This document shows positions 5,147 through 60,252 of a stretch of 64,000 bases of DNA, in pieces; within the stretch, counting starts at the first letter, position 1, and each line of letters opens with the position of its first letter. Below the pieces are notes generated by a model. That model made no database searches, was not told where the DNA came from, and worked only from the letters and a program-made list of their open reading frames with translations. The position numbers and the translations under genes are program-made. Source of the DNA: Pseudomonadales bacterium (GTDB lineage Bacteria > Pseudomonadota > Gammaproteobacteria > Pseudomonadales > Azotimanducaceae); the NCBI GenBank assembly GCA_965208525.1, contig OZ242340.1, positions 2,711,737 through 2,775,736 of the forward strand. The letters run 5' to 3'.

Positions 5147-6952
5147 TTGCCTCTTCCCGCCTTGCCGAGGGACCGTTTGAACATCCGCAACATCGCCATC
5201 GTCGCGCACGTCGATCATGGCAAGACGACGCTCGTGGATCGCTTGCTGCAGCAGACCGACGCCGATCGTCGCCTCGTGGGCCTAGAACGCGCGCTCGACC
5301 AAGGCGAACTCGAACGCGAGCGCGGCATCACCATCCTGGCCAAGACCACCGCCATCGAGTACCAGGGCTGCCGCATCAACATCGTCGACACGCCGGGGCA
5401 TGCCGACTTCGGCGGCGAGGTGGAGCGCATCCTGTCGATGGTGGATTCGGTGCTGCTGCTGGTCGATGCGGTGGAGGGGCCGATGCCCCAGACCCGGTTC
5501 GTCACCGCCAAGGCGTTTGCCGCTGGCCTCAAGCCCATCCTCGTCGTCAACAAGGTTGATCGCGACGGCGCCCAACCTCATGCCGCAGTGGACAAGGTCT
5601 TTGATCTGTTCGACGCCCTCGGCGCCAGCGAAGAGCAGCTCGACTTCCCGGTGATGTTCGCATCGGCGCTGCAGGGTGTCGCCGGCCCCGACCCCGAGCA
5701 GCTCGAACCGGGCATGGCACCGCTGCTTGATTTGATCGTCGGGCGAGTGCCGCCGCCGACCGTGGATGGTGACGGACCGTTTCGGATGCAGGTGAGCACC
5801 CTCGACTACTCGAGCTACGTCGGCGTCATCGCCATCGGCCGCGTGTCCCGTGGCCGCGTGAAGCCCCGCGATCCGGTGAATGTCGTGAATGCCGAGGGAA
5901 ACGTGCGACGGGCGCGGGTGCTTGAGGTGCAGGCAAGCCAGGGGCTCGCTCGGGTGGATCTTCCCACCGCTGTGGCCGGAGACATCGTCGCCTTGAGCGG
6001 CATCGATGACATCGAGGTCTCTGACACCATCTGCGCCGCAGACTCGGTGGACCCGCTGCCGCGCCTGGCCGTGGACGAGCCGACCCTGACGATGACCTTC
6101 GTCGTCAATTCCGGTCCCTTCGCCGGCAAGGAAGGGCGGTTTCTTACGGCCCGTCACCTGCGCGAGCGATTGTTTCGGGAAGCGACACACAACGTCGCGC
6201 TGCGTGTGGCCGATACAGACCAGCCGGATCGATTCCAGGTCTCGGGGCGCGGCGAACTGCATCTGTCGGTGCTGATCGAGACGATGCGACGGGAGGGCTA
6301 CGAGATGGCGGTGACGCAGCCGTCCGTCATCACTCGCGAGGAGGAAGGTCGCACGCTCGAACCCTGGGAGGTAGTGGCCTTCGACATCGACCTCAGCCAT
6401 CAGGGCGCACTCATGGAGACCTTGGGGGAGCGGCGCGGCGAGCTGCTCGACATGGAAGCTGCTGGCGCTGGACGCGTGCGCCTGCGCTACCGCGTCGCCA
6501 GCCGCGCCTTGCTCGGCCTGCGGTCGGAGTTCGCCTCCTTCACCTCCGGCAGCGGCGCGATGACCTTCGCTCCGGACGGCTACCGCCCCAAGGCCATTGG
6601 CGTGCGCGGCGGTCGCAACACAGGCGTCCTCGTCTCCAATGCCACCGGCAAGGCCGTCGCGTATGCCCTGTTCAATCTGCAACGCCGAGGCGAACTCTTC
6701 ATCGGCCCTGGCGACGCGGTCTATGCCGGCATGGTCGTCGGCGCCCACTCCCGCAGCAACGACCTCGTGGTCAATCCGCTGAAGGAAAAGAAGCTCACCA
6801 ACATCCGCGCCGCCGCCAACGACGAGAACATCCTCCTGACGCCGCCGGCGCGGATGTCCCTCGAACAGGCTCTCAACTACATCGCCCGTGACGAACTCGT
6901 GGAGGTAACCCCGGCAGCCATCCGCATCCGCAAGGCAGATGCGGCGCGCTGA
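5147..6952 (+). CDS. typA: Translational GTPase TypA/BipA
   Basis: '[20 protein letters not shown]...[17 protein letters not shown]...' is the G-domain of the EF-G/BipA family at ~600 aa. The true start may be the TTG at ~5177 (MNIRNIAI...). Confidence 0.9.
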
Positions 6953-17122: not shown

Positions 17123-18046
17123 CTAGGAAGTCGGGTCGTTGGTCGCGACGGTTGTGAGGTCGATGCCGGCGTCGCGGCAGCGGGCGGCGAGGAGGTCCAG
17201 GCGGTGAACGAAGCGGCGTTCGTAGTCGTCGGCGCCGAGGCTCGCGTCGAAGCGAACGCGGCGCAGGCCGTCGCTGACGTTGAAGGCACGGCGTACCCTG
17301 GGCAGGCGGCGTTCGAGTGGATCGAAGATGGCGACGAAAGAGGTCGCATTGCGGCTGGCGAGGGCCGTGACCGCATCTAGCCAGTCTTCCCGAGCTGCGA
17401 AGTCGCTGATGACGACGATGCGTTGATTGGCTGGTGCAAGTCGGGCAAGGGTCTCGGGCAGTCGTCCAAGGGAGTTGGCCGTGGCCCGTGCGGGGGAGAG
17501 CGCTTGATTGGCTTTCGCGACCGCCGCGAGGAACCGTCCCACCGCGACGCTGGAGCGATGCGGTCGAAACGCCACAAGCTCGGACTCGCCCATCACCACG
17601 CCGCCTACCCGGTCCCCGGCCTGAAGCGCTCGCCATGCGGTTCGTGCAGCCACTTCCGCTGCCGCAACGGACTTCAACCGCGCCACGCTGCCGAAGAACA
17701 TCGAGCGGGTTTGGTCCACGACGATCAGCGTCGGCAGTTCGCGTTCCTCGCGGAAGACGCGAATGTGGGCGTGAGCCTTGCGCGCCGTGACCCGCCAGTC
17801 GATGTAGCGTGCGTCATCGCCGGGTTGGTATTCCCGCACCTCGTCGAGGTCGATACCGCGTCCCTTGCGGCGGGACTCGTGCATGCCGACGCGCCGGCCC
17901 TTCGCGCGACGGGGAAGGGCTTGAGCGCGTAGGTGGCGCAGCGCAAGGAGTTCCTCAAGGCTCGCATATGCGCCTTTCAGAGCCAGCCCGTCGGCAAACG
18001 CCGGCCCCGACTTGGTCGCCTCAGCGTCAGGCGATGCGCCCCTCAC
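17123..18046 (-). CDS. DUF58 protein (MoxR-associated, vWA-like)
   Basis: '...VGMHESRRKGRGIDLDEVREYQPGDDARYIDW' is the DUF58 core. GTG start at 18046 overlaps the moxR stop by 4 bp (GTGA). Confidence 0.7.
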   Translation of the reverse strand: MRGASPDAEATKSGPAFADGLALKGAYASLEELLALRHLRAQALPRRAKGRRVGMHESRRKGRGIDLDEVREYQPGDDARYIDWRVTARKAHAHIRVFREERELPTLIVVDQTRSMFFGSVARLKSVAAAEVAARTAWRALQAGDRVGGVVMGESELVAFRPHRSSVAVGRFLAAVAKANQALSPARATANSLGRLPETLARLAPANQRIVVISDFAAREDWLDAVTALASRNATSFVAIFDPLERRLPRVRRAFNVSDGLRRVRFDASLGADDYERRFVHRLDLLAARCRDAGIDLTTVATNDPTS

Positions 18047-43517: not shown

Positions 43518-43562
43518 GCCTCGGAACGCTTCAAGGCCACCCTGACGCCTTCCAACGCAACA

Positions 43563-43791: not shown

Positions 43792-43856
43792 GAGTAAGAA
43801 CTCGCTCCCGCTCGCAGTCCGCTATTCTTGCCTGCCGTGCAGGGAAGGGTTAGGGG

Positions 43857-44996: not shown

Positions 44997-46216
44997 GCCG
45001 CCCCGGCCTGCTCGAAGGCGTGCGCGTCGTGGATCTCTCGATGGGCTGGGCCGGCCCCTTGGCGGCGCGGCATCTCGCCGACATGGGCGCTGATGTCATC
45101 AAGGTGGAAGGTTGCGTCCGCTTCGACTGGTGGCGTGGCTGGGAGGCCACCCAGGAGTGGATCGATGAGGGTGGCGCCGAGATGTCGCCGGCGTTCAACA
45201 TGGTGAACCGCAACAAGCGCGACCTGACGCTGGACCTCTCAACTTCGGAAGGGGCGGACCTGCTGTTGCGCTTGGTGGCCATCTCCGACGTCGTGGTGGA
45301 GAACTACTCCGCCGGCGTGCTGCCGAAGCTTGGCCTCGACTACCCCGTGCTGGCGAAGGCCAACCCCGAAGTCGTGATGATCTCGATGCCCGCTTTCGGC
45401 AGCAACGGCCCATGGCAAGGCTATCGAGCCTACGGTTCAACGGTCGAGCAGGCATCCGGCTTGCCGCATCAGTCCGGCGAGGAGTCCATGCCGCCCACCA
45501 TGACTCACGTCGCGCTTGGCGATTCGGTGGGTGGCCTCAACGGCGCGGCGGCGCTGCTCACGGCACTCCGGGCCCGGCGCAGAACCGGCAAGGGCCAGCA
45601 CCTCGACCTGTCGCAGTCGGAATGCCTGTTTCCGCTCGGCATCAAAGGCATCCTGACGCAGTCTGTCACCGGCTCGCCGCCGCAGCGACTCGGAAATCGC
45701 TCCCTCGAACACGCGCCGCACGGGGTCTATCCCTGCGCCGGCGACGACGAGTGGATCGTCATCCAGGTTCGCTCGGAAGCGGAGTGGAAGGCGTTCGAGG
45801 CGGCGAGTGGCATTGGCGGATTTGGCGATGCTGCGGATCGGCTGGCACGGCGGGAGGAACTCGACGACGCCGTGCGAGCTTTCACCTCGACGCAGGTTGT
45901 CGAGCTCTTGATGCCAGAGTTGCAGGAAGCGGGCGTCCCGGCGGCACGCTTGGCCGGGGGGCTGGAACTCACCACGGACCCGCACCTGGCGGCGCGGGGC
46001 TTTTGGAAGATGATGCAGCGCGACTATGTCGGCGAGCTGCCGCACCCGGCGCCGCCCTATCGCGTTGGCGAAGCGCCGTTCGACATCGACCGTCCGGCGC
46101 CGACCCTCGGCCAACACAACGTTGAGGTGCTGTCGGAAGTGCTGGGCCTCGCGCCCGACGAGATCGCGGCGTTGGCGGAGAAGGGCGTCATCGGCACCAA
46201 GCCGCGACTGCCATGA
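44993..46216 (+). CDS. Family III CoA-transferase (CaiB/BaiF family)
   Basis: 'GVRVVDLSMGWAGPLAARHLADMGADVIKVE'. 4-bp overlap with the upstream gene (translational coupling). Confidence 0.85.
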   Translation: MSRPGLLEGVRVVDLSMGWAGPLAARHLADMGADVIKVEGCVRFDWWRGWEATQEWIDEGGAEMSPAFNMVNRNKRDLTLDLSTSEGADLLLRLVAISDVVVENYSAGVLPKLGLDYPVLAKANPEVVMISMPAFGSNGPWQGYRAYGSTVEQASGLPHQSGEESMPPTMTHVALGDSVGGLNGAAALLTALRARRRTGKGQHLDLSQSECLFPLGIKGILTQSVTGSPPQRLGNRSLEHAPHGVYPCAGDDEWIVIQVRSEAEWKAFEAASGIGGFGDAADRLARREELDDAVRAFTSTQVVELLMPELQEAGVPAARLAGGLELTTDPHLAARGFWKMMQRDYVGELPHPAPPYRVGEAPFDIDRPAPTLGQHNVEVLSEVLGLAPDEIAALAEKGVIGTKPRLP

Positions 46217-48597
46217 CGGCGCCGCCGCTCACCGGCACACGCGTCGTCGATGCCACCACACGCTGGGGCGAAATGGCGGGACGCATCCTCGCGGAGCTTG
46301 GTGCCGACGTCATCAAGATCGAGCCGGCCGCTGGGTGTGATTCCCGCCGCGTGGGGCCATTCCACGAGGGAGAGTCGCTGTACTGGGCGGCGATGGGCGC
46401 CGGCAAGCACAGCGTGGTTGCGGACGACCCGGAGCCGTATCTCTCGGACGCGGATGTATTCATCGAGTCGGGCTTCCGCGGGGCGCTGAATGAGCGCTTT
46501 CCGCGCTTGATCCATGCCTGCGTGACGCCGTTTGGCCTCGGTGGCCCGTTGGCGGATGCGCCAGCCGCCGAGGTCACCGTCGAAGCCGCGGGGGGCCTCG
46601 TCAACCTGCAAGGCAACGGCGACCGACCGCCGCTGCCCATGGGCGCAATGCCGCAGGCTGCGTTCCATGCCGGCGCGCAGGCGGCGGCGGACATCGTGGT
46701 GGCGCTCAACGCGCGGGAAGGCTCGGGGCTGGGGCAACGGCTGGATGTTTCCGCGCAGGCATGCATCGTCTGGACTCTGATGAATGCCACCGGCTTTCCG
46801 CCGAACACCGGGCGCAACCCACCGGGCACCAGCGAGTTTCGTGGCCAGTTGCCGCCCTTGGTCGCACCGGGTCTCAAGCTGCCGAACATCGTGCGCTGCC
46901 GCGACGGCCATGCCCAGCTTCGCTTGCAGATGCCGGTGATCGGCGAGCGCACCTTCCATGCGCTACTGCGTTGGGCGGAGGAAAGCGGGCTCGACGTGCC
47001 CGACGCGTTGCGCGGACGAGACATGACCGGCTGGCTGGCGGCGCTGGCAGCCGGCGAGGTGAAAGCGGAAGACGTGGGCATCGCGGCGGAACGTGTCGTG
47101 GATGTCTTGGCGCTGCACACGAAGCGCGAGATCCAGTCGTTCTCGGCGAAGCACGGTCTCACCCTTGCCGCCATCTACACGGTCGCCGATCTCGCCACCG
47201 ATCCGCAGCTCGAAGACCGTGACTACTGGGTGCATTGTGACGGGCGGCGCTACGCAGGTCCGTTCGCCCGGCTGTCCCGAACGCCGCTGTCGCGTGCCCG
47301 CCACGCCCCGGCGATCGGCGAGTCCATGGCGAGCACGCGAACTGCGACCGATGTGCAGGACAAGACGCCCGCCGATCAGGCCAACCTGGACGCGCGCCGG
47401 CAGGCACCTTCTTCGTCGCGGCGTGTTTCGTCGGCTTTCGAGGGGCTGCGCGTGGCCGACTTCAGTTGGGTGGGTGTCGGTCCCATGATCGGCAAGGCGC
47501 TGGCGGATCATGGCGCGACGGTGGTGCGCATCGAGTCCTCGAGCCGGCTCGACCTCCTGCGCACGTCGGCACCCTTCAAGGACGGCAAGCGCCACCCCGA
47601 CCGGGCGCAGTTCATGGCCAACTTCAACACCTCCAAGCGCGGCATCACGCTGGACCTCAAGAATCCGGAGGGCCAACGGGTCGCCCGGCGCATGGCGGAT
47701 TGGGCAGACGTGGTGCTCGAGAGCTTCTCGCCGGGCACGATGGCTCGCTTTGGCCTCGACTGGGACGCGCTCTCGAGCGAGCGCGACGACCTCATCATGC
47801 TGTCCACCTGCATGCGAGGCCAGACGGGGAGGGAGCGAACCTACTCCGGTTTCGGCGGCCAGGGCGCAGCCATTGCGGGGCTCTTTGGGCTGGTCGGCTG
47901 GCAAGACCGTCCGCCTTCCGGGCCGTGGGGCGCCTACACGGACTTCATCACCCCTCGCTTCGCCACCGCTACCCTCGGCGCCGCGCTCCTGCACAGGCAG
48001 CGCACGGGCAAGGGGCAGTACATCGATGTCTCGCAGATCGAGTGCGGCATTCGCTTCCTCGAACCGTTGGTGCTCGAACACGCGGCCAACGGCAACGTCG
48101 CCACCCGATTGGGACAGGGCTCGCCACAGCTCGATCCACACGGCGTCTTCGCCTGTCGTGGCACCCATCGCTATGTCGCCGTGGGCGTGGAGACAGACGC
48201 CGAGCGCGAGGCGCTGGCGAGTGCCATCGGGCATGCTTGCGCAGATGCCAGCGCCGGTCTCGATGGGGCGTTAACGTCGTGGTGCGCGTCGCGCGATGCC
48301 TTCGCCGCCGCAGCCTGCTTGCGCGATCACGGCGTGCCGGCGCATGTCGTCGCTCGCCCTGCGGACCTCTACCACGACGAGCAGCTGGCGCACCGTCACT
48401 TCTTCGTGACGCTGAACCATCCTGTCATGGGTCCCACGCCCTACGACGGCCCGGCCACCATCTACTCCCGTACGCCGCCGCGCCTGCGGACGCCAGCGCC
48501 ATGTCTCGGCCAGCACAATCGCGAGGTGATGGGTGGGATGCTGGGCATCGACGGCGCCGAATACGAACGCCTGCGCGCGGCCGGCGCCTTCGGCTAG
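46213..48597 (+). CDS. Double-domain family III CoA-transferase (two CaiB-like modules fused)
   Basis: First module 'GTRVVDATTRWGEMAGRILAELGADVIKIE'. Second module begins 'FEGLRVADFSWVGVGPMIGKALADHGATVVRIE'. 794 aa. 4-bp overlap with the upstream gene. Confidence 0.8.
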   Translation: MTAPPLTGTRVVDATTRWGEMAGRILAELGADVIKIEPAAGCDSRRVGPFHEGESLYWAAMGAGKHSVVADDPEPYLSDADVFIESGFRGALNERFPRLIHACVTPFGLGGPLADAPAAEVTVEAAGGLVNLQGNGDRPPLPMGAMPQAAFHAGAQAAADIVVALNAREGSGLGQRLDVSAQACIVWTLMNATGFPPNTGRNPPGTSEFRGQLPPLVAPGLKLPNIVRCRDGHAQLRLQMPVIGERTFHALLRWAEESGLDVPDALRGRDMTGWLAALAAGEVKAEDVGIAAERVVDVLALHTKREIQSFSAKHGLTLAAIYTVADLATDPQLEDRDYWVHCDGRRYAGPFARLSRTPLSRARHAPAIGESMASTRTATDVQDKTPADQANLDARRQAPSSSRRVSSAFEGLRVADFSWVGVGPMIGKALADHGATVVRIESSSRLDLLRTSAPFKDGKRHPDRAQFMANFNTSKRGITLDLKNPEGQRVARRMADWADVVLESFSPGTMARFGLDWDALSSERDDLIMLSTCMRGQTGRERTYSGFGGQGAAIAGLFGLVGWQDRPPSGPWGAYTDFITPRFATATLGAALLHRQRTGKGQYIDVSQIECGIRFLEPLVLEHAANGNVATRLGQGSPQLDPHGVFACRGTHRYVAVGVETDAEREALASAIGHACADASAGLDGALTSWCASRDAFAAAACLRDHGVPAHVVARPADLYHDEQLAHRHFFVTLNHPVMGPTPYDGPATIYSRTPPRLRTPAPCLGQHNREVMGGMLGIDGAEYERLRAAGAFG

Positions 48598-48718
48598 GGG
48601 GCCTGCGAAGTTTCCGCGACGCAGTCCCCACAAAGCGACGTTTTCTGTCGCACCGCTTTTTCGCCGTGCGCCTGGTGTCGTACAATCGCGCAGATCGCAG
48701 TTATGTGACAGGTGGCCC

Positions 48719-49735
48719 ATGCGCAAGGCAGGCGACACGATCATGCGCTCGCTGACGATGCTGCAGGTGATTCCGGTGCAGCCCCGTTCCAAGACCACGC
48801 GGGAAATCGGCGAGGAACTGCTCGCGGTGGACCCCGACTACGAGGTGGACATCCGCTCGATCCAGCGCAGCCTCGAGAAACTCTCTGCCATCTTCCCAAT
48901 CAGCAGCGAGCGGGACGGTCGTGCCAACCGCTGGTTCTGGACTCAAAAGGACGCCATCACCCAAATCCCGGCGATGAGCCGGGAGACGGCCTTCGCGCTG
49001 AAGCTCGCGGGCGAGTACCTCAAGCCCATCATGCCGCCCTCCACCCTGCGTCTGATCGCCGGTCACCTGCGCGCCGCCGACGAGATGCTCAAGGGCGAGT
49101 CGAAGCTCGGCGCATGGGCGCGCAAGGCGCGCATCGTCGAACGGGGCATTGCCATGACACCGCCGAGCGTGCGTCAGGACGTGATCGAGGAGGTGTATCG
49201 GGCACTGCTCGACGACCAGCGCATCGAGGTCACATGCAGCGCCCCCGGGGAGCGGGCCACGCGACGGGTGTTGAATCCCCTTGGGGTCGTCTTCCGGGGC
49301 GGCATCATCCATCTGGTGGCCACAGAGGAAGGCGAGGAGGGCGAGGGCGAAGTGCAGCATTTCGTGCTGCATCGGCTGTCGAATCCCACCGTGCTGGCGG
49401 AGGCAGTGCAACGTCCGCGCGGGTTCAGCCTGTCGCGCCACCTCGACGAGACGGAGGAGTTCTCGTCTGAGGTGGGCGCCGGCAAGCTCAAGCTGCGAGC
49501 GGCGTTTCAGCCCGAGGCGTTCGGTCAGCTAGGCGACGCCAAGCTCGCGTCCGATCACCGCACAACCATGCGACGCGACGGCCGCATCCTCGTCGAGGCC
49601 ACGGTTGCCGACTCGGATGAGCTCCGCACTTGGCTCATGGGCTTCGGCGCAATGGTGGAAGTGCTGTCGCCAAAGCGCCTGCGCAACGAATTCACGGCGC
49701 ACGCCGAAGCCCTGCACGCGGCCTACGTCGGATAG
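48719..49735 (+). CDS. WYL-domain transcriptional regulator (HTH-WYL-WCX; YafY/PafBC/BrxR-type architecture)
   Basis: N-terminal wHTH '...TREIGEELLAVDPDYEVDIRSIQRSLEKLSAIFPI', a central WYL-like beta-region 'RRVLNPLGVVFRGGIIHLVA' and a C-terminal WCX-like '...ELRTWLMGFGAMVEVLSPKRLRNEF'. Alternative start at 48743. Confidence 0.7.
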   Translation: MRKAGDTIMRSLTMLQVIPVQPRSKTTREIGEELLAVDPDYEVDIRSIQRSLEKLSAIFPISSERDGRANRWFWTQKDAITQIPAMSRETAFALKLAGEYLKPIMPPSTLRLIAGHLRAADEMLKGESKLGAWARKARIVERGIAMTPPSVRQDVIEEVYRALLDDQRIEVTCSAPGERATRRVLNPLGVVFRGGIIHLVATEEGEEGEGEVQHFVLHRLSNPTVLAEAVQRPRGFSLSRHLDETEEFSSEVGAGKLKLRAAFQPEAFGQLGDAKLASDHRTTMRRDGRILVEATVADSDELRTWLMGFGAMVEVLSPKRLRNEFTAHAEALHAAYVG

Positions 49736-49811: not shown

Positions 49812-50786
49812 CTAAACGTAAGGAACCCCCTGCGTCTCCACATACAGCGAGTACAGCGACTGCGAGCCGGTCATGAACAGCCGGTTGCGCTTCACGCCGC
49901 CGAAGCAGACGTTGGACACGCCCTCCGGCAGGTGGATTTCACCGATCTTGTCCCCGTCGGGCGCGAACACGTGGACGCCGTCGTAGCCATCGCCGCCCCA
50001 GCCGGCGGCTGACCAGACGTTGCCGTCCACATCCACGCGAATGCCGTCCGAACTGCCGGCACCCATGTCGCAGAATACGCGGGGGCTCGCAAGCGTTGCA
50101 TTGTCCACGACGTCGAACGCCGTGATGTGGTGCGGATGCCCGGGCACGTGCGAGGCGCCGGTGTCCACAAGGTAGAGCGTCTTGTAGTCGGGCGAGAAGG
50201 CGAGCCCGTTCGGCTTTTCCAGGCTCTCGTCCACCACCGCGGCTTCGAGCGTTTCCGGCGCCAGCCGATAGACGCGCGTTGGCAGCTCGAACGGCGCCTT
50301 GTGGCCTTCGTAGTTGACGTGAATGCCATAGCCGGGGTCCGTGAACCAGATGCCGCCGTCCGCGTGCACCACGACGTCGTTTGGCGCGTTCAGGCGCTTG
50401 CCCTCGAAGCGATCCATGAGCACGGTGACGGTGCCGTCGTGCTCGGTGCGCGTGACCCGACGGGACCCGTGCTCGCAGGTGACGAGTCGGCCTTGCCGGT
50501 CTCTGGTGTTGCCGTTGGCGTTGTCGGCCGGAGAACGCCAGACGGTTACCTCGCCGGTGATCTCGTCGAAGCGCAGGATGCGGTCGTTCGGGATGTCGCT
50601 CCACAAGAGGTAGCGCCCGTCGCCGAACCACACCGGCCCTTCCGCCCAGCGACAGCCGACATAAAGCCGCTCCACGGCGGCGCTGCCCAGCACATAGCGG
50701 CGAAAGCGCCGATCCAGAACCTGCACGGCGGGGTCTGGGTAGCGCACCGGCTCGTTCCAGTCGCGCGATGGGGTGGCACCGTCCAT
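49812..50786 (-). CDS. SMP-30/gluconolactonase/LRE-family lactonase
   Basis: 'GPVWFGDGRYLLWSDIPNDRILRFD', 'NAPNDVVVHADGGIWFTDPGYG' and 'SSDGIRVDVDGNVWSA' are typical six-bladed propeller lactonase motifs. ATG at 50786 (MDGATPS). Confidence 0.75.
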   Translation of the reverse strand: MDGATPSRDWNEPVRYPDPAVQVLDRRFRRYVLGSAAVERLYVGCRWAEGPVWFGDGRYLLWSDIPNDRILRFDEITGEVTVWRSPADNANGNTRDRQGRLVTCEHGSRRVTRTEHDGTVTVLMDRFEGKRLNAPNDVVVHADGGIWFTDPGYGIHVNYEGHKAPFELPTRVYRLAPETLEAAVVDESLEKPNGLAFSPDYKTLYLVDTGASHVPGHPHHITAFDVVDNATLASPRVFCDMGAGSSDGIRVDVDGNVWSAAGWGGDGYDGVHVFAPDGDKIGEIHLPEGVSNVCFGGVKRNRLFMTGSQSLYSLYVETQGVPYV

Positions 50787-51124
50787 TTTTTTGCCTCTTG
50801 CATTGAAATCCCTTGCAACCTGAGCCCTCCGCCCCTCGGAATGGCTCGTCGCCTTGGCTCCGTGGCCGCCGACGATAGGCCCTCGATTGTATGTGCCGGA
50901 GACCGAAACGGGCGGTCCTCGAGGGACGTGTGCTCGTTCGAGCGACCGCACCGCCCCGTCGCGGCGTCACGAGTCGGACTGATATCTTACTGATACCAAA
51001 AATGGGCGTTTGCGCTATTTCGCCTCTGCACCCCTCGCTTGGTGGCGCCAGTGGCGCTGCTGGGGCTTCTGATATCTGTTGCCCGAAGAGGCAACCGTGA
51101 GAAGGAAAAGAGAGGAGAAACGAA

Positions 51125-51865
51125 ATGATCAGAGTTGTAATCGCGGATCACCACCGGCTGTTTCGGTCGGGACTGAGGAGATTGTTGAACGACACGCGCA
51201 CGATCGACATCGTTGCGGAAGCCGGTTCCGGCGATGCGCTGGTGGACATCGCAAGAGACCTTCGGCCGCATGTAGTGCTGGTGGAGATCGCCATGCCGGG
51301 CATTGGCGGGCTGGAGGCGGCTCGGCGTGTCATCAGGCTCGGCAAGGACATCCGGGTGGTCGTCGTCACCGGCGCATACGACGAACCGTATGCGGCGCAG
51401 GCACTGCGGGTGGGTGTGAGCGGCTTCGTCACGAAGAGTTCGTCAAGTGAAGACGTGGTGACGGCCATCAAGTGCGCGCACGCGGGTCAGCGGTTCGTCA
51501 GCAGCGACGTGGCGCAGCGGCTGGCCTTTCGCTCGTTTGAGGAGGACGTGGGATCGCCGTTCGACCAGCTCTCGTCGAGAGAGATGCAGATCACGCTCAT
51601 GGTGATCAACTGCCACCGCGTGCAGGACATTTCCGACAACCTGCACCTGTCGCCAAAGACGGTGAACAGCTGCCGCTACCGCATCTTCAACAAGCTGAGT
51701 GTGTCGAGCGATGTGGAACTGGCTCTCCTCGCAGTCAAGCACGGAATGATCAACCCGAAGTTCGGCAACGTCGGCGCGACCCGCATCGGCGAATCGTGGG
51801 GCGAACGGTTGCTGCCAGCGCACAGTGAGGGGCTGCCGTCCCGACGCACCGCGTCGCTGCCCTGA
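51125..51865 (+). CDS. gacA: Two-component response regulator, GacA/UvrY (NarL/FixJ family), with ~25-aa C-terminal extension
   Basis: Near-colinear with E. coli UvrY: 'VVLVEIAMPGIGGLEA', 'DVAQRLAF', 'SPFDQLSSREMQITLMVI' and 'LSPKTVNSCRYRIFNKL'. Sits immediately upstream of uvrC. Confidence 0.9.
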   Translation: MIRVVIADHHRLFRSGLRRLLNDTRTIDIVAEAGSGDALVDIARDLRPHVVLVEIAMPGIGGLEAARRVIRLGKDIRVVVVTGAYDEPYAAQALRVGVSGFVTKSSSSEDVVTAIKCAHAGQRFVSSDVAQRLAFRSFEEDVGSPFDQLSSREMQITLMVINCHRVQDISDNLHLSPKTVNSCRYRIFNKLSVSSDVELALLAVKHGMINPKFGNVGATRIGESWGERLLPAHSEGLPSRRTASLP

Positions 51866-51985
51866 GGGCGGCCTCGCGACTCTCGGGGGGCCCCGCGGGC
51901 GGACGCTGGCATTTGCCGAAACCGCCGAGCGTGTTGACAATGCACGGGCATGGCAGATTACCGTTCGGACACGGGTGCCCCTCGG

Positions 51986-53875
51986 ATGGGCAAGCACCGC
52001 CGGGGGCGTGAGCAACCGGCGGAGGGGGCCTCCCTTGAACTGCCGGCGGCAACCGAGGCCGTTTCAGTGGATTTCGAGGCCTTGCTCAAGAACCTGACCA
52101 CGAAGCCTGGCGTGTATCGCATGGTGGGGGCAGGTGGTGAGGTGCTCTATGTCGGCAAGGCGCGCAACCTCAAGGCGCGGGTGACCAGCTACTTCCGGGC
52201 ATCCGGCCTCACCACCAAGACGATGGCCATGGTGGCCCGGCTCGAAGGCGTGGAAGTGACGGTCACGTCCAGCGAGACCGAGGCGCTGCTGCTCGAACAG
52301 AGCCTCATCAAGGAACATCGACCGACGTACAACGTCGTGTTGCGGGACGACAAGTCCTACCCCTACATCCACCTCACCGACCACGCCTTTCCGCGGCTGA
52401 CGCTGTATCGCGGCTCGCGCAAGGCGCCGGGGCGCTACTTCGGCCCGTATCCGAGCGCCGGCGCGGTGCGCGACAGCATCAACGTGCTGCAGAAGCTGTT
52501 CGGCATTCGCCCGTGCGAGGACGGCTTCTACAAGAATCGCTCGCGTCCGTGCCTGCAACACCAGATCGGCCGTTGCAGCGCACCGTGCGTGGGGCTCGTC
52601 ACCCGCGAGCGCTACGCCGAAGACCTGCGCCTCGCGCAGATGTTCCTCGAAGGGCGCAGCCAAGCCATCCTGGAAGAGTTCAAGGGGCGCATGGAGGAAG
52701 CGTCGTCGAAGCTGGAGTTCGAGCGGGCGGCGCGATTTCGCGACCAGATCCAGCACTTGCGGCGGGTGCAGGAGAACCAGTATGTGCATGGCGATGGCGG
52801 CGACGTGGACGTATTTGGCGTGGCCCTCGCCTCGGGGCAAGCCTGCGTGCAGGGGCTCTTCGTGCGTGGCGGTCGTCTCCTTGGCAACCGCAACTGGTAT
52901 CCGCGGAACGAGTTGGGCCTCGGCGAGCAGGACCTCTTGTTCGCGTTTCTGTCGCAGTATTACCTCGGCGGTGCGGAGCGCGAACTGCCGAAGTCGGTGG
53001 TGGCGCCCCTTGCCGCCGCGGACGCGGAGCTGCTTGCGCGAGCGTTGGCGGAGAAGGCCGGGCGGGCGGTGGCCGTGGCGAGCGTGGTGCGGTCGCAGCG
53101 GGCGCGCTGGGCGAGCATGGCGCGGGACAATGCGGAGCTTTCGCTGCAAACGCTGCTGGCGGACCGCAAGAACGTGCTTGGCCGCTTCGTGGCGTTGCAG
53201 GAGGCGCTCGAATGGGAAGACACGCCGCAGCGGCTCGAATGCTTCGACATCAGCCACTCGGCTGGCGAGGCGACGGTGGCATCCTGTGTCGTGTTCGACA
53301 CCGAGGGGCCGTTGAAGTCCGACTATCGTCGCTTCAACATTGAGGGCGTGCCTCGGGGCGACGACTACGGTGCCATGGAGCAAGCGCTTCGGCGACGTTA
53401 CACGCGCCTCAAGCAAGGCGAGGGCGCGCTGCCGGACGCCCTCGTGATCGATGGCGGCAAGGGCCAGGTGGGACGGGCCGTGGAAGTGCTGGAAAACCTG
53501 CAAATCGACGACGTGGCGGTGCTGGGCGTCGCCAAGGGGCCTTCACGCAAGGCCGGTCTCGAATCGGTGCTGCTTGCCGGGCGGGGGGAGCTTGCGCTGC
53601 CACCGAACGGTCCCGCCATGCATCTGTTGCAGCACATCCGCGACGAGGCGCATCGCTTCGCCATCACTGGGCATCGCGGCCGCCGGCAGAAGAAGCGGCG
53701 CCAGTCGGTGCTGGACGGCATACCCGGCGTGGGCGCGAAGCGAAAGCGACAACTGCTGACGCATTTCGGTTCGGTGGCGTCGGTGCAGGGGGCCAGCATC
53801 GAGGAGATCGCCAAGGTGCCGGGCATCAGCACCAAGCTCGCGGACGAGATTCATGGAACGCTCCATGCGACTTGA
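51986..53875 (+). CDS. uvrC: Excinuclease ABC subunit C
   Basis: 'KPGVYRMVGAGGEVLYVGKARNLKARVTSYF' (GIY-YIG), a UvrBC-interaction region and C-terminal RNaseH-like/HhH domains. Start uncertain (alternative GTG at ~52067). Confidence 0.9.
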   Translation: MGKHRRGREQPAEGASLELPAATEAVSVDFEALLKNLTTKPGVYRMVGAGGEVLYVGKARNLKARVTSYFRASGLTTKTMAMVARLEGVEVTVTSSETEALLLEQSLIKEHRPTYNVVLRDDKSYPYIHLTDHAFPRLTLYRGSRKAPGRYFGPYPSAGAVRDSINVLQKLFGIRPCEDGFYKNRSRPCLQHQIGRCSAPCVGLVTRERYAEDLRLAQMFLEGRSQAILEEFKGRMEEASSKLEFERAARFRDQIQHLRRVQENQYVHGDGGDVDVFGVALASGQACVQGLFVRGGRLLGNRNWYPRNELGLGEQDLLFAFLSQYYLGGAERELPKSVVAPLAAADAELLARALAEKAGRAVAVASVVRSQRARWASMARDNAELSLQTLLADRKNVLGRFVALQEALEWEDTPQRLECFDISHSAGEATVASCVVFDTEGPLKSDYRRFNIEGVPRGDDYGAMEQALRRRYTRLKQGEGALPDALVIDGGKGQVGRAVEVLENLQIDDVAVLGVAKGPSRKAGLESVLLAGRGELALPPNGPAMHLLQHIRDEAHRFAITGHRGRRQKKRRQSVLDGIPGVGAKRKRQLLTHFGSVASVQGASIEEIAKVPGISTKLADEIHGTLHAT

Positions 53876-54455
53876 ACTGACATCGCTCAACCTGCCGAAC
53901 GTCCTCACCATCGCGCGCATCGCGCTGATCCCGGTGTTCGCGCTCATCTATTTCTTCGCCGACGAACACTACTGGGTGGCGTCGCTGTTCTTCGGTGCCG
54001 CCGCCTTCACCGACTGGCTGGACGGCTATCTGGCGCGGCGCCTGAACCAGACCACGCGCTTTGGCGCCTTCCTGGATCCGGTCGCGGACAAGCTGATCGT
54101 GGTCACGGCGCTGGTGCTCTTGATCGGCAACCACGCCAACCTGCTGCTGACGATTCCGGGCGTGGTCATCATCGGACGCGAAATCGTCATCTCGGCCTTG
54201 AGAGAGTGGATGGCGGAGATGGACCGGCGCGGCGTGGTGGCCGTGTCCTGGATCGGGCGGGCCAAAACGACGATGCAAATGGTCGCGATCTTCATGCTGC
54301 TGGCGAATCCACCCGTGCTCGGACGCCCGTGGGTGATCGTTGGCCTCGTGCTGCTCTACGCCGCCGCGCTGCTGACGCTGTGGTCCATGGCAACGTACCT
54401 TCGCGCGGCCTGGCCCTCGCTGGTCGAGGGATTGAACTCAGACGACGAGGCGTAG
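53865..54455 (+). CDS. pgsA: CDP-diacylglycerol--glycerol-3-phosphate 3-phosphatidyltransferase
   Basis: 'NLPNVLTIARIALIPVF' and 'DWLDGYLARRLNQTTRFGAFLDPVADKL' (CDP-alcohol phosphatidyltransferase motif). Overlaps the uvrC stop. Confidence 0.9.
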   Translation: MRLELTSLNLPNVLTIARIALIPVFALIYFFADEHYWVASLFFGAAAFTDWLDGYLARRLNQTTRFGAFLDPVADKLIVVTALVLLIGNHANLLLTIPGVVIIGREIVISALREWMAEMDRRGVVAVSWIGRAKTTMQMVAIFMLLANPPVLGRPWVIVGLVLLYAAALLTLWSMATYLRAAWPSLVEGLNSDDEA

Positions 54456-58719: not shown

Positions 58720-59136
58720 TTACGGAACGCGGGCCGACGCCTCCCTGGCCCGGAGGAACAGCATCCGCGCCAACATGGCCAAGAGGGCAATGCAACCGGT
58801 GGCGGCGGTGGCGATCACCCACGGCAGCGGCTTCATGCCGAGGCGGCGCGCTTCCGGGACCAGGAATGCGAGGGCGATGCCGGCGGCGATCAAGAGGTCG
58901 ATGAAGATCTGATTCGACCAGAGACTGCGGCTGATCTCCTGCCAGATGGCGACCAGTCCATCGCTGGCGAGGGCATACAGGGTCCATGCGAGAAACGCGA
59001 CGCAAATCGTCGCGGGGAGCATCCATGCGCTGGCGCGAGGTGCGGATTCCGAGCGCAGAGGGACGACTGCCACCGTAAGTACGAAGGCGACGAAGCCCAG
59101 GGCGGCGAGGATTGGTGCGGCTGTGGTGAGGGTCAT
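58720..59136 (-). CDS. Small integral membrane protein (4 predicted TM helices), function unknown
   Basis: Hydrophobic segments 'AAPILAALGFVAFVLTVAVV', 'MLPATICVAFLAWTLYAL', 'IFIDLLIAAGIALAFLV' and 'WVIATAATGCIALLAML'. Confidence 0.5.
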   Translation of the reverse strand: MTLTTAAPILAALGFVAFVLTVAVVPLRSESAPRASAWMLPATICVAFLAWTLYALASDGLVAIWQEISRSLWSNQIFIDLLIAAGIALAFLVPEARRLGMKPLPWVIATAATGCIALLAMLARMLFLRAREASARVP

Positions 59137-59307
59137 GGCAACCTCCCATGGATTGTGGATGGCGTCTCACTTCGACTTGCGCCTGATGCCGCTGTCCTCT
59201 GGACGGAGGGGCGTTCGGCCCTTCAAAGCGCCCGCAAGGGCGCGCATCCTTCATATGCAGCGAGTGTTCTGCGCGCCTTGCAGCGCGATGGAGGGCAAGA
59301 GCGTGCA

Positions 59308-60252
59308 CTAGACAAACAGCCGTGAGACGCTCTCGCCCGAGTGGATGGCGTAGATGGCGTCGGCGAAGAGCTTAGCGACGGAGACTGTCGCGACCTTCTC
59401 CATACTCTGGCCGCTTGGCGTGGGGATCGTGTTGGTGACCACGAGTCGTTCGATGGGGGAGTCGGCGAGGCGTTCGTAGGCGTGGCCGCTCAGCACCGGG
59501 TGGACGGCGGCGGCCGCGATGCGCTGGGCGCCGTTTTCGAGCAGGAACTGGGCGGCGGCGATCATGGTGCCGCCACTGGTGATCTCGTCGTCGATGAGCA
59601 GGGCATTGCGACCGGCAACGTCGCCGATCAGCCCCACCGCCTTGGCGTTTTCCGAGTCATCGGGGCGGCGCTTGTCGATGATCGCGATCGGGGCGCCCAG
59701 GCGATTGGCGTAGTCCTCGAGGTCCTTCGCCTCACCCACGTCACTTGCCACCAGCACGCTGTCGCCGAGTTCGCTGGTGCTGCGCAGTTCGTTGCAGACG
59801 ATGGGCGTTGCGTTCAGTTGGTCCACAGGGATGCGGAAGAACCCCGCGACCTGCGGCGAGTGCAGGTTCATGGTCAGCACCCGGTCGGCGCCGGCGGTTT
59901 CGAGGAGGTCAGCCATCAGCCGCGCCGTGATGGAAATGCGCGGGCGATCCTTCTTGTCGGAGCGCGCATAGGGGAAGTACGGCAGCACGGCGGTGATGCG
60001 TCGCGCCGATGCGTGCTTGAGCGCGTCGATAGCGATCAGGAGTTCCATGATGTGGTCGGAAAGCGGCGGGCAGGAGGTCTGGATGACGAAGACATCCGAC
60101 TCGCGCACGTTTTCCTGACACTGGAACAGGATGTTCTCGTTGCCGAAGCGGATGATCTCGGTGGCGGTGGGGCGCACGCCGAGATGCGCGCAGATCTCCT
60201 CGGCGAGCTCAGGATGCGAGGAGAGGGCGATCACACTAATATCGTTGGCCAT
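59308..60252 (-). CDS. prs: Ribose-phosphate pyrophosphokinase
   Basis: 'MANDISVIALSSHPELAEEIC...' with the PRPP-binding loop 'LIDDEITSGGT'. ATG at 60252. Confidence 0.92.
   Translation of the reverse strand: MANDISVIALSSHPELAEEICAHLGVRPTATEIIRFGNENILFQCQENVRESDVFVIQTSCPPLSDHIMELLIAIDALKHASARRITAVLPYFPYARSDKKDRPRISITARLMADLLETAGADRVLTMNLHSPQVAGFFRIPVDQLNATPIVCNELRSTSELGDSVLVASDVGEAKDLEDYANRLGAPIAIIDKRRPDDSENAKAVGLIGDVAGRNALLIDDEITSGGTMIAAAQFLLENGAQRIAAAAVHPVLSGHAYERLADSPIERLVVTNTIPTPSGQSMEKVATVSVAKLFADAIYAIHSGESVSRLFV

What the first reader, a model, noticed from the sequence alone, without database searches (positions are those of the whole stretch)
48600..49735. WYL-domain regulator embedded at the end of the carboxylase/CoA-transferase block, with a candidate palindromic operator upstream
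The protein has the HTH-WYL-WCX architecture of ligand-sensing regulators (PafBC, BrxR, CapW, DriD class). These are mostly known from defence and DNA-damage contexts; finding one flanked only by metabolic genes suggests ligand-responsive control of this catabolic module. The 120-bp region upstream contains 'agcgacgttttctgtcgca' (gcgac/gtcgc arms) and 'TGTCGTACAA-N15-TTATGTGACA' (imperfect inverted repeat), which are plausible operator candidates.
Basis: partly seen in the sequence, partly recalled or inferred. Interest (0 to 1): 0.5.

Follow-up and report, generated by a model that had tools for sequence, protein, structure and literature searches.

The report
WYL regulator with DriD-type operator
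This gene encodes a DNA-binding regulator related to those that switch on DNA-damage and phage-defence genes, and it sits behind its own conserved binding site; it is probably not a dedicated switch for the neighbouring metabolic genes, and it lacks the two tyrosines its relatives use to sense damaged DNA.

Summary
The gene is real: window 48719-49735 (+), 338 aa, with WYL and WCX domains above Pfam thresholds and a winged-helix N-terminus seen only by fold. Its closest characterised relatives are the DNA-damage activators DdaA (Acinetobacter, 28% identity, E 1e-35) and DriD (Caulobacter, best solved structure), not BrxR or CapW.

It is invariant in the close relatives compared, although the rest of the spacer is not alignable. 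It is the best match in the window to a matrix built from 39 sites in other loci, and it equals the DriD/DdaA box CGAC-N7-GTCG.

The second palindrome is at chance level and is explained by the -10 box (TACAAT) and the ribosome site.

Control of the carboxylase/CoA-transferase block is not supported, because no box lies in those promoters. Of 77 more distant family loci, 58 sit beside a double AAA+ ATPase, a DUF2779 nuclease or a RecB-like nuclease-helicase instead.

Two facts keep that idea alive. The CoA-transferase adjacency persists down to 56% identity, and this clade has replaced both ssDNA-sensing tyrosines (C173, H198).

Unexplained: GCGAC-N7-GTCGC occurs six times in the window, five of them inside genes, against about 0.5 expected.

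The parts
48719..49735 (+). Coding sequence of the wHTH-3HB-WYL-WCX regulator (338 aa plus TAG stop)
   Evidence: ORF and sequence. The start is fixed by the family-wide conserved N-terminus. Pfam WYL and WCX. dN/dS against four close relatives is 0.07-0.13.
48719..48958 (+). Winged helix-turn-helix (residues ~1-80), with recognition-helix arginines R46 and R50 (VDIRSIQRSLEKL)
   Evidence: The AF2 model shows H4-17, H27-37, H45-56, E61-66 and E69-74. It aligns over its full length with DriD. R46/R50 align with DdaA R47/R51 and are invariant in 169 of 169 family sequences. This domain has the lowest dN/dS, 0.01-0.05. There is no Pfam HTH hit.
48980..49117 (+). Three-helix bundle linker (residues ~88-133)
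   Evidence: AF2 helices 88-101, 107-125 and 128-133. This is the same domain order as DriD (PMC13004042).
49181..49390 (+). WYL domain (residues 155-224). It includes C173 (49235-49237), H198 (49310-49312) and the acidic loop TEEGEEGEGE (49322-49351)
   Evidence: Pfam PF13280, E 2.6e-9. C173 and H198 align with the DdaA ssDNA-sensing residues Y173 and Y200 (PMC13010146). The family keeps Y at 158 of 170 and 151 of 170 sequences, and all 12 His belong to this clade and its 56-58% sister clade.
49490..49714 (+). WCX dimerisation domain (residues 258-332)
   Evidence: Pfam PF25583, E 1.5e-14.
48633..48653 (.). DriD/DdaA-type operator box AAGCGAC-GTTTTCT-GTCGCAC (core CGAC 48636-48639, GTCG 48647-48650).
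   Evidence: GCGACGTTTTCTGTCG is invariant in L001-L003 and L083, while the rest of the spacer is unalignable and varies from 121 to more than 400 bp. It is the top hit in the 64-kb window (22.0 bits) to a matrix built from 39 sites of other loci; the null maximum was 18.2. It is the only true intergenic region with a positive score. It matches the published consensus sequences.
48681..48686 (+). Predicted -10 hexamer TACAAT of the regulator's promoter, with a weak -35 (TTTTCG, 48658-48663)
   Evidence: GTACAATC is invariant in the window and four relatives. No consensus sigma-70 promoter was called because the -35 is poor. The assignment is an inference.
48710..48715 (+). Ribosome-binding site AGGTGG
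   Evidence: GTGACAGGTGGCCCATG is invariant in the clade A relatives.
48676..48710 (.).
   Evidence: It matches at 7 of 10 positions, and 12.4 such repeats are expected per 121 bp. Its conserved parts coincide with the -10 and the ribosome site, and the left arm is altered in L002.
47416..47436 (.). Degenerate box (TCGCGGCGTGTTTCGTCGGCT) in the inter-domain linker of the fused CoA-transferase. It is a perfect GCGAC-N7-GTCGC in six of eight close relatives
   Evidence: The arms are kept and the spacer varies. The relatives use the Arg codon CGA where the window has CGG. The site is lost in L002 and absent from the 56% relative L085.
53744..53764 (.). Candidate box AAGCGACAACTGCTGACGCAT (one core mismatch) inside the 3' end of uvrC, about 90-110 nt upstream of the pgsA start
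   Evidence: 16.9 bits. It is present in all seven relatives examined, but the surrounding DNA is 96% conserved, so this conservation carries no weight.
58997..59624 (.). Cluster of three GCGAC-N7-GTCGC boxes (58997-59013, 59375-59391, 59608-59624) in the prs 3' half and a DUF2834 membrane-protein gene
   Evidence: The 58997 and 59375 boxes are kept in L002, and the 58997 core is kept in L001.
6182..6198 (.). Intragenic GCGAC-N7-GTCGC box in typA/bipA
17331..17347 (.). Intragenic GCGAC-N7-GTCGC box in the DUF58 gene of a Bat-type operon

Best explanation
Window 48719-49735 encodes a stand-alone ('orphan') paralogue of the DdaA/DriD branch of wHTH-WYL-WCX transcription factors.

By analogy with the solved DriD complexes, it is a WCX-mediated homodimer. 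Its winged helices, using the recognition arginines R46 and R50, bind the 21-bp box AAGCGAC-N7-GTCGCAC. The box lies 27 nt upstream of a conserved -10 (TACAAT) and next to a poor -35, so the protein regulates at least its own monocistronic gene.

Its position behind the CoA-transferase genes is lineage-specific synteny, not the family's normal wiring. Most relatives share such a box with a double AAA+ ATPase, a DUF2779 nuclease or a RecB-like nuclease-helicase. The same metagenome-assembled genome that carries a 94% orthologue also carries one of these canonical ATPase-linked copies.

Shown: the domains, the homology ranking, the box and its conservation, the absence of boxes in the metabolic promoters, and purifying selection.

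Inferred: dimerisation, actual binding, the promoter assignment, and the sign of autoregulation. Box position and weak -35 fit activation; DriD-like negative feedback is equally possible.

Uncertain: the signal. Both tyrosines needed for damage sensing in DdaA are replaced (C173, H198) and an acidic loop is inserted. ssDNA sensing may therefore be altered or lost, even though the WYL domain is still under constraint.
For: Domains: WYL and WCX are above Pfam thresholds.

Homology ranking:
- A family profile hits DriD at 2e-18 and PafBC at 2e-12; BrxR and CapW are not found at E<=0.01.
- Foldseek ranks DriD 2e-16, PafBC 1.6e-11, BrxR 1.7e-7 and CapW 4.5e-7.
- BLASTP against the A. baumannii DdaA orthologue gives 28% identity and E 1e-35. 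The family profile against it gives hhalign E 6.6e-51 over 318 columns.
- That A. baumannii ORF carries R47, R51, Y173 and Y200 at exactly the published positions (PMC13010146).

The box:
- It is a phylogenetic footprint at dS 0.19-0.52.
- An exact CGAC-N7-GTCG lies within 250 bp upstream of the regulator gene or of the ATPase-regulator operon in 43 of 77 other loci. The background is 0.11 per kb. The consensus is ATGCGAC-N7-GTCGCAT.
- The published boxes are DriD ATACGAC-N7-GTCGTAT (PMC10853764) and DdaA CGWCA-N5-TGWCG (PMC12392091).
- The window's box is its best matrix hit and the only positive-scoring true intergenic region.

Context:
- The metabolic neighbourhood is found only in relatives at 85% identity or more, and the CoA-transferase adjacency also in two at 56-58%.
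- 58 of 77 other loci have an ATPase, DUF2779 or nuclease-helicase neighbour. None of these occurs in the 64-kb window.
- L002 and L019 come from the same assembly, VXSY01.

Selection: dN/dS is 0.07-0.13 overall and 0.01-0.05 in the wHTH.
Against: - No experiment bears on this protein, and the organism is an uncultivated MAG.
- Both ssDNA-sensing tyrosines are replaced, so the DriD/DdaA signal logic may not apply.
- No DNA-damage gene in the window has a box in its promoter. The uvrC-associated site lies at the 3' end of uvrC.
- The CoA-transferase adjacency is retained down to 56% identity, and a box sits inside that gene in most close relatives. 'Incidental synteny' is therefore not proven.
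- The box also scores as a weak terminator-like hairpin.
- The -35 is poor and the transcription start is unknown.
Confidence: 0.65

Rival explanations
1. One reading: a ligand-sensing WYL regulator dedicated to the adjacent carboxylase/CoA-transferase module, responding to a pathway metabolite such as a CoA thioester.
For: - CoA-transferase -> regulator adjacency is kept in relatives at 87% (L083) and 56-58% (L084, L085). In all of them the CoA-transferase is 77-79% identical to the window's.
- A perfect GCGAC-N7-GTCGC lies in the linker of the fused CoA-transferase in six of eight close relatives.
- Both ssDNA-sensing tyrosines are replaced, only in this lineage.
- WYL domains can bind non-DNA nucleotide ligands, for example c-di-GMP (PMC11880434, abstract listed).
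Against: - No box lies upstream of either carboxylase or of the first CoA-transferase (-1.2 and -6.8 bits).
- The regulator is downstream of the block and co-directional with it, and it has its own promoter.
- The carboxylases are absent from L083.
- The linker box is degenerate in the window, lost in L002 and absent in L085. It sits in a low-complexity Ser/Arg linker.
- The recognition helix and the box are those of the DNA-damage branch.
- Most of the family sits next to DNA-processing genes.
Confidence: 0.15
2. A sensor-impaired paralogue that still binds the box but no longer responds to ssDNA. It would act as a constitutive repressor or competitor at the boxes of the canonical ATPase-linked paralogue and at other genomic boxes.
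For: - The recognition arginines and the box are retained, while Y173 and Y200 are replaced.
- DdaA Y173S and Y200S mutants keep promoter binding but lose damage induction (PMC13010146).
- A canonical paralogue with the same core box coexists in the assembly that holds L002.
Against: - The WYL domain is still under purifying selection (dN/dS 0.12-0.20), which argues for a working ligand site.
- His can still contact a phosphate.
- Position 173 is Tyr in two clade members (P0004, P0005).
Confidence: 0.12
3. The first palindrome is just the intrinsic terminator of the CoA-transferase operon and has no protein-binding role.
For: The scan calls 48635-48651 a terminator-like hairpin followed by ACCGCTTTTT, 38 nt after the CoA-transferase stop.
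Against: - In relatives the element stays 82-95 nt from the regulator start, while its distance from the CoA-transferase stop grows to 200-400 nt.
- The T-run and the outer stem pair are not conserved, but the CGAC/GTCG core is.
- The same core precedes regulator or ATPase genes in 43 other loci.
- The RNA fold of the spacer is not unusual (z -1.2).
Confidence: 0.04
4. A chromosome-wide DNA-binding factor whose main sites lie inside genes, rather than a promoter-specific regulator. This would resemble the proteins that bind dispersed palindromes such as matS or the SlmA and Noc sites (comparison from general knowledge).
For: - GCGAC-N7-GTCGC occurs six times in 64 kb, against 0-2 for every other spacing from N0 to N30.
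- Five of the six are intragenic.
- The excess survives codon-shuffle and synonymous-resampling nulls.
Against: - Only 64 kb was seen.
- Family relatives use the box in promoters.
- There is no information on genome-wide distribution or strand/replichore pattern.
- Some N7 palindromes in related genomes belong to REP-like hairpins.
Confidence: 0.04

Closest known systems
DdaA (Acinetobacter / Moraxellaceae WYL activator of the DNA-damage response; PMC12392091, PMC13010146)
   Same: - Closest characterised sequence relative: 28% identity, E 1e-35.
- Same wHTH-WYL-WCX order.
- Recognition arginines R47/R51 correspond to R46/R50.
- Same box, CGAC-N7-GTCG (CGWCA-N5-TGWCG).
- Gln at the position where most of the family has Arg (EVQxF).
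- Basal DdaA lineages are self-regulated, and non-Moraxellaceae homologues are described as local regulators of neighbouring genes of unknown function.
   Different: - Y173 and Y200, which DdaA needs for damage induction, are C173 and H198 here.
- An acidic loop is inserted in the WYL domain.
- No recA, ssb or aciT-type target is visible.
- The only promoter box seen is its own.
- It sits behind a CoA-transferase operon.
DriD (Caulobacter crescentus; PDB 8tp8, 7tzv, 9pfq; PMC9186387, PMC10853764, PMC13004042)
   Same: - Best solved-structure match by sequence profile (2e-18) and by fold (2e-16).
- Same four-domain layout, including the three-helix bundle.
- Palindromic box ATACGAC-N7-GTCGTAT. 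The didA site ATACGACCGTTTCTGTCGCAA, as printed in PMC13004042, shares 16 of 21 positions with the window's box.
- DriD binds its own promoter, and its target promoters have poor -35 elements.
   Different: - Only 18-20% identity.
- DriD Y168 and Y192 are replaced.
- The box here ends 27 nt before the -10 rather than covering the -35 position.
- Gammaproteobacterial, and not shown to respond to damage.
PafBC (mycobacterial DNA-damage activator; PDB 6sj9, 9fnd)
   Same: WYL-WCX core and activator branch (profile E 2e-12, fold E 1.6e-11).
   Different: PafBC is a heterodimer or fusion of two WYL proteins. It binds a non-palindromic motif, and only together with RNA polymerase (PMC10853764). Here there is a single gene and a palindromic box.
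BrxR / CapW (defence-island WYL repressors; PDB 7qfz, 7t8k, 7tb5, 9c5g)
   Same: Overall wHTH-WYL-WCX fold, and autoregulated local operators.
   Different: - Much weaker similarity: fold E 1.7e-7 to 4.7e-6, and not found by the sequence profile at E<=0.01.
- No BREX, CBASS or other defence genes are adjacent in the window. PADLOC matches only generic WYL models.

Membership tests
wHTH-WYL-WCX (class A) WYL transcription factors | WYL domain | tested here: met
   PF13280, E 2.6e-9, 37.4 bits against a cutoff of 21.8, residues 155-224.
wHTH-WYL-WCX (class A) WYL transcription factors | C-terminal WCX extension | tested here: met
   PF25583, E 1.5e-14, 54.5 bits against a cutoff of 23.9, residues 258-332.
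wHTH-WYL-WCX (class A) WYL transcription factors | [quoted passage not shown] | tested here: met
   No Pfam hit; A. baumannii DdaA also has none. The AF2 model shows helix-helix-helix plus a beta wing, and it aligns over its full length with DriD including the wHTH.
wHTH-WYL-WCX (class A) WYL transcription factors | Homodimer through WCX | not testable with these tools
   Inferred from the DriD and DdaA literature only.
DdaA/DriD-type DNA-damage activators | Sequence and fold closer to DdaA/DriD than to the other WYL branches | tested here: met
DdaA/DriD-type DNA-damage activators | Two recognition-helix arginines (DdaA R47, R51) | tested here: met
   R46 and R50; invariant in 169 of 169 family sequences.
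DdaA/DriD-type DNA-damage activators | CGAC-N7-GTCG box at its own or target promoters | tested here: met
   Box at 48636-48650, conserved in relatives, top matrix hit, and recurrent across the family.
DdaA/DriD-type DNA-damage activators | ssDNA-sensing tyrosines in the WYL domain (DdaA Y173/Y200; DriD Y168/Y192) | tested here: not met
   C173 and H198. The family keeps Tyr at 158 of 170 and 151 of 170 sequences.
DdaA/DriD-type DNA-damage activators | Boxes in promoters of DNA-repair or cell-division genes (recA, ssb, uvrA, didA/aciT) | tested here: inconclusive
   Only 64 kb is available. There is no box in the gacA or uvrC promoter regions. One imperfect box lies at the 3' end of uvrC. recA and the other genes are not in the window.
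DdaA/DriD-type DNA-damage activators | ssDNA binding and induction by DNA damage | not testable with these tools
   Needs biochemistry or expression data.
BrxR/CapW defence-system repressors | Located next to, and sharing a promoter region with, a phage-defence system | tested here: not met
   The neighbours are CoA-transferases, SMP-30 and gacA-uvrC-pgsA. Fold similarity is weaker than to DriD and PafBC.
PafBC | Two-subunit or fused double WYL protein with a non-palindromic, RNAP-dependent site | tested here: not met
   A single 338-aa gene with no second WYL gene in the window, and a palindromic box.

The most novel reading that the evidence does not exclude
A DdaA-family regulator that has been repurposed. 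It lost both ssDNA-sensing tyrosines and gained an acidic loop. It has been inherited behind a CoA-transferase operon since before a 56%-identity split. Its box is over-represented inside genes, including the CoA-transferase linker in relatives, the uvrC 3' end, and a three-box cluster at a small DUF2834 membrane-protein gene.

On this reading it would sense something other than ssDNA, for example a CoA- or nucleotide-like metabolite. Alternatively, it would act through dispersed intragenic sites rather than classical promoters.
Probability: 0.15. Interest if true: 0.65.

Novelty: new variant of a known kind. Interest (0 to 1): 0.4.

Why it matters
WYL regulators of the DriD/DdaA branch have been described as ssDNA-activated master switches of SOS-independent damage responses. 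Outside Caulobacter and the Moraxellaceae, their homologues are only noted as 'local regulators of unknown genes'.

This locus gives three things:
- An independent, family-wide confirmation that the CGAC-N7-GTCG box travels with this branch in uncultivated marine Gammaproteobacteria and in Nitrospira and Desulfuromonadales MAGs. (Several MAG names point to sponge microbiomes; that is inferred from the names only.)
- A recurrent partner module: a double AAA+ ATPase, a DUF2779 nuclease and a RecB-like nuclease-helicase.
- A natural variant that keeps the DNA-reading head and the operator but has changed the sensing residues. Such a variant is a useful probe of how WYL ligand specificity evolves.

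For annotation, the practical lesson is that adjacency to metabolic genes is weak evidence for a regulator's target.

Tried and rejected
- **Known RNA element in the spacer.** Rfam found nothing relevant, and the RNA fold z-score was -1.2.
- **Consensus sigma-70 promoter.** None was called, because the -35 is poor.
- **Terminator reading of the box.** Rejected as its main role on positional and conservation grounds.
- **Palindrome 2 as an operator.** At chance level, and explained by the -10 and the ribosome site.
- **Naming from curated libraries.** NCBIfam gave no hit for the regulator. PADLOC gave only generic WYL and Cas3c-WYL models.
- **Family partner genes in the window.** No tblastn hit for the ATPase, DUF2779 or nuclease-helicase.
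- **Boxes upstream of the metabolic genes.** None found.
- **Pfam HTH at relaxed E-value, and a PDB search with the N-terminal 127 aa alone.** Nothing.
- **Conservation test of the uvrC-end box.** Uninformative, because the flanks are 96% identical.
- **More relatives to test the prs/DUF2834 box cluster.** Insertions in those genomes put the region beyond the 10-kb flank.
- **Literature on DUF2779 and DUF2834.** Nothing relevant.
Full report
**What is at the coordinates**

The + strand ORF ending at 49735 is real. Its longest form starts at a GTG at 48533. However, 36 homologues from 98% down to 33% identity all begin with MRKAGDT/MRKATDT, which fixes the start at ATG 48719, giving 338 aa. Pfam gives WYL (residues 155-224, E 2.6e-9) and WCX (residues 258-332, E 1.5e-14), both above the curated cutoffs.

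No Pfam HTH model matches the N-terminus, even at E<=5. The same is true of Acinetobacter DdaA. An AlphaFold2 model built on the family alignment (mean pLDDT 80) shows a winged helix-turn-helix, a three-helix bundle, a beta-rich WYL domain and the WCX domain. The HTH part rests on fold, not on a profile hit.

**Neighbourhood**

Upstream and co-directional lie several genes:
- Two single-chain biotin carboxylases with BC-BCCP-CT order (36806-40273 and 40257-43517).
- Three family III CoA-transferase genes. The last (46213-48597) is a fused double enzyme.

Downstream lie a convergent SMP-30/gluconolactonase gene (49812-50951, minus strand), then a response regulator of the UvrY/GacA type, uvrC and pgsA. 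'Flanked only by metabolic genes' is therefore only partly true.

**Which WYL regulator**

A profile of the family hits solved DriD chains best (E 2e-18) and then PafBC (2e-12). BrxR and CapW are not reached at E<=0.01. Foldseek with the model gives the same order: DriD 2e-16, PafBC 1.6e-11, BrxR 1.7e-7, CapW 4.5e-7.

A tblastn against plasmid records happened to hit three A. baumannii chromosomes filed as plasmids. The ORF there (L081 3986-4993, 335 aa) carries R47, R51, Y173 and Y200 at exactly the positions published for DdaA. I therefore take it as the DdaA orthologue. The window protein is 28% identical to it (E 1e-35), and the family profile matches it at E 6.6e-51 over 318 columns. The protein thus belongs to the DdaA/DriD activator branch and is nearer to DdaA.

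**The first palindrome is a real operator candidate**

On its own it is not remarkable. Random 121-bp regions of this composition contain on average 3.4 perfect 5-bp inverted repeats. Three independent lines of evidence single it out.

1. *Footprint.* In the four relatives aligned here (87-97% protein identity), the spacer between the CoA-transferase stop and the regulator start ranges from 121 bp (window) to more than 400 bp and is mostly unalignable. Yet GCGACGTTTTCTGTCG is invariant and stays 82-95 nt from the start codon. Synonymous divergence in the adjacent gene is 0.19-0.52.

2. *Recurrence across the family.* Among 77 loci encoding relatives of 33-53% identity, 43 have an exact CGAC-N7-GTCG core in a promoter position. 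In 31 it lies within 250 bp upstream of the regulator gene, and in 12 upstream of an ATPase-regulator operon. The background is 0.11 per kb. The consensus is ATGCGAC-N7-GTCGCAT with an A/T-rich spacer.

3. *Matrix scan.* A matrix built from 39 of those sites, with none from the window's clade, scores 48633-48653 at 22.0 bits. That is the best hit in the 64-kb window; shuffled windows averaged a maximum of 11.1 and never exceeded 18.2 in 50 trials.

The motif is the published one. DriD binds ATACGAC-N7-GTCGTAT (PMC10853764). DdaA binds CGWCA-N5-TGWCG, or CGACAATATGTGTCG at aciT (PMC12392091 and PMC13010146). The recognition-helix arginines that DdaA needs (R47, R51) are R46 and R50 here, and they are invariant in all 169 aligned family sequences.

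**The second palindrome is not supported**

It matches at 7 of 10 positions, and 12.4 such repeats are expected in the region. Its conserved portions are GTACAATC, a good -10 (TACAAT, 48681-48686), and GTGACAGGTGGCCCATG, the ribosome site and start. Its left arm changes to TGGCG in L002. Its arms face outwards, opposite to the family box.

It does contain a right half-site (TGTCGTA) overlapping the -10. A weak second contact therefore cannot be excluded.

**Promoter geometry (inference)**

The box ends 27 nt upstream of the -10. The -35 position reads TTTTCG (3 of 6), and the consensus scan calls no sigma-70 promoter. DriD-dependent promoters also lack good -35 elements (PMC13004042).

In relatives at 56-58% identity, the box abuts a TAGAAT hexamer directly. 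The sign of autoregulation cannot be read from sequence.

The scan also calls the box a weak terminator-like hairpin. Its T-run and outer stem pair are not conserved, and it travels with the regulator rather than with the upstream gene. I therefore reject termination as its main role.

**Does it control the catabolic block?**

The best matrix scores in the spacers upstream of the first carboxylase and the first CoA-transferase are -1.2 and -6.8 bits. The regulator's own spacer is the only true intergenic region with a positive score.

Only relatives at 85% identity or more share the whole neighbourhood. Of the 77 other loci, 58 carry one or more of the following within a few kb:
- a ~700-aa protein with a winged-helix N-terminus and two AAA+ domains (42 loci, either divergent from the regulator or directly upstream of it);
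- a DUF2779 Cas4-like/RNase H-like nuclease (24 loci);
- a TM0106-type RecB-like nuclease fused to a superfamily 1 helicase (8 loci).

None of these occurs in the window. A 36% homologue on a Methylomonas plasmid sits among umuD, a Y-family polymerase, an SOS-response-associated peptidase and a PD-(D/E)XK nuclease. The assembly that holds the 94% orthologue (L002) also holds a canonical ATPase-linked paralogue (L019, 47%) with the same core box. The window's gene is therefore best seen as an orphan paralogue.

1. The two relatives at 56-58% identity (L084, L085) also lie directly downstream of a CoA-transferase. That enzyme is 77-79% identical to the C-terminal half of the window's enzyme, about as similar as the CoA-transferase of the 87% relative L083. 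One of them has a different downstream neighbour. The adjacency is therefore old within this lineage, and the regulator has evolved much faster than its neighbour.

2. Six of eight close relatives carry a perfect GCGAC-N7-GTCGC in the variable linker between the two halves of the fused CoA-transferase. The arms are conserved and the spacers differ. The window has CGGC...GTCGG there, L002 has lost the site, and L085 lacks it.

3. The two tyrosines whose mutation abolishes damage induction, but not promoter binding, in DdaA (Y173S, Y200S; PMC13010146) are C173 and H198 here.
   - Across 170 family sequences, Tyr is kept at 158 and 151 of them.
   - All 12 His belong to this clade and its 56-58% sister.
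   - Position 173 varies within the clade (C, S, I, V, L, and Y in two members).
   - A loop that reads SWxYED in the family is TEEGEEGEGE here.
   - The Gln at 213 is shared with DdaA and so is not diagnostic.

The WYL domain is nevertheless constrained (dN/dS 0.12-0.20), so it probably still binds something.

**An unexplained excess of boxes inside genes**

GCGAC-N7-GTCGC occurs six times in the window:
- 6182, in typA;
- 17331, in the DUF58 gene of a Bat-type operon;
- 48635, the regulator's own promoter;
- 58997, in a DUF2834 membrane-protein gene;
- 59375 and 59608, in the 3' half of prs.

Every other spacing from N0 to N30 gives 0-2 occurrences, and the 5-mer counts predict 0.53 per spacing.

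Two null models were run. Both leave the own-promoter site in place, so it counts as one of the expected sites.
- Shuffling codons within genes gives 1.34 sites in total. None of 500 shuffles reached six.
- Resampling synonymous codons while keeping every protein sequence gives 1.83 (P = 0.002). It gives 0.18 matrix hits of at least 16 bits outside the own box, against four observed.

Three of the boxes lie within 630 bp around the 5' end of the 138-aa DUF2834 gene. Other family loci also show an N7 peak away from the regulator promoter: 25 sites, against 1-13 for other spacings, in 1.08 Mb. There the sites are mostly intergenic and lie in front of DUF6557, an AAA_15/AAA_21/DUF3696 ATPase and unknown genes.

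I cannot say whether the window's intragenic boxes are functional. Where relatives could be compared, the flanking DNA was too conserved to be informative.

**Verdict**

The finding is a correctly recognised WYL regulator and one correctly guessed operator. The regulator belongs to the DdaA/DriD branch, and it most likely autoregulates through a DriD-type box.

The proposed role as the switch of the carboxylase/CoA-transferase module is not supported by the motif search or by the family's usual contexts, but it is not excluded.

What is new is modest. This is an orphan subclade with altered sensing residues, a stable position behind a CoA-transferase operon, and a spacing-specific surplus of its box in coding DNA.

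Noticed in passing
window 6182-6198, 17331-17347, 58997-59013, 59375-59391, 59608-59624 (plus 48635-48651): GCGAC-N7-GTCGC occurs six times in 64 kb, against 0-2 for every other spacing N0-N30. Five are inside genes, and three cluster around a DUF2834 membrane-protein gene. The excess survives codon-shuffle and synonymous-resampling nulls.
   Followed up: partly
window 47416-47436; L001 8533, L003 8386, L083 6667, L086 3264, L087 8340, L088 8348: A perfect box sits in the Ser/Arg-rich linker between the two halves of the fused CoA-transferase in six of eight close relatives. It uses the Arg codon CGA. It is degenerate in the window (CGG), lost in L002, and absent in the 56% relative L085.
   Followed up: partly
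window 53744-53764: A box-like site with one core mismatch (AAGCGACAACTGCTGACGCAT) lies in the last 130 nt of uvrC, about 90-110 nt before the pgsA start. It is present in all relatives, but the region is 96% identical throughout. The same TGACGCA variant arm recurs in the promoter sites of L015, L022, L023 and L025.
   Followed up: partly
L004-L077 (e.g. L004 7404-9455; L014 7792-9942; L007 11110-12594; L004 1-3238): Recurrent partner module of this regulator family: a ~700-aa winged-helix plus double AAA+ ATPase (42 of 77 loci), a DUF2779 nuclease (24) and a TM0106-type RecB-like nuclease-SF1 helicase (8). A DriD-type box lies in the shared promoter. No curated family names any of these proteins.
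   Followed up: partly
window 36806-48597: Two adjacent single-chain biotin carboxylases (BC-BCCP-CT, 1155 and 1086 aa, 64% identical to each other by the L001 cross-hit) are followed by three family III CoA-transferases, the last a head-to-tail fusion of two such enzymes. The carboxylases are missing from the 87% relative L083, and only one is present in L088.
   Followed up: partly
window 51125-54455: A gacA/uvrY-type response regulator, uvrC and pgsA are in the order known from enterobacteria and pseudomonads (recalled from general knowledge). This puts a repair gene 2.2 kb from the regulator.
   Followed up: no
window 48598-48629, and the L001-L003 spacers: The CoA-transferase-to-regulator spacer is 121 bp in the window but roughly 290-480 bp in relatives, with unrelated inserted sequence. 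A GC-rich hairpin (GGGGCCTGCG...CGCAGTCCCC) directly follows the CoA-transferase stop.
   Followed up: no
L083 554-632 and 9145-9223; L004 14546, 18964: Repeated REP-like hairpins GGGCGACC-N5-GGTCGCCC, occurring in pairs, also match GCGAC-N7-GTCGC. One pair lies just after the regulator's stop in L083. They could inflate box counts in some genomes.
   Followed up: no
L086 11854-12575; L088 18034-18725 and 16199-16758; L083 14088-14638: Relatives carry small insertions absent from the window at the same place: a PIN-domain toxin with a small partner gene, and pairs of ~90-aa ORFs between pgsA, the MaoC-like gene and the ferredoxin gene.
   Followed up: no
window 13697-18220 (minus strand): A Bat-type operon (two VWA proteins, DUF4381, DUF58). 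My GC3 filter wrongly treated part of it as intergenic and called a spurious + strand ORF at 17423-17932.
   Followed up: yes
L082 (Methylomonas koyamae plasmid pFW12EY, 97381-110364): A 36% homologue of the regulator sits among an SOS-response-associated peptidase, umuD, a Y-family polymerase, a PD-(D/E)XK nuclease and RtcB. This is a DNA-damage context on a mobilisable plasmid.
   Followed up: no
L081 (NZ_CP077849.1) and H10, H11: Three 3.6-4.1-Mb A. baumannii replicons are filed in the plasmid collection. They are almost unannotated there, and the DdaA orthologue has no listed feature.
   Followed up: no
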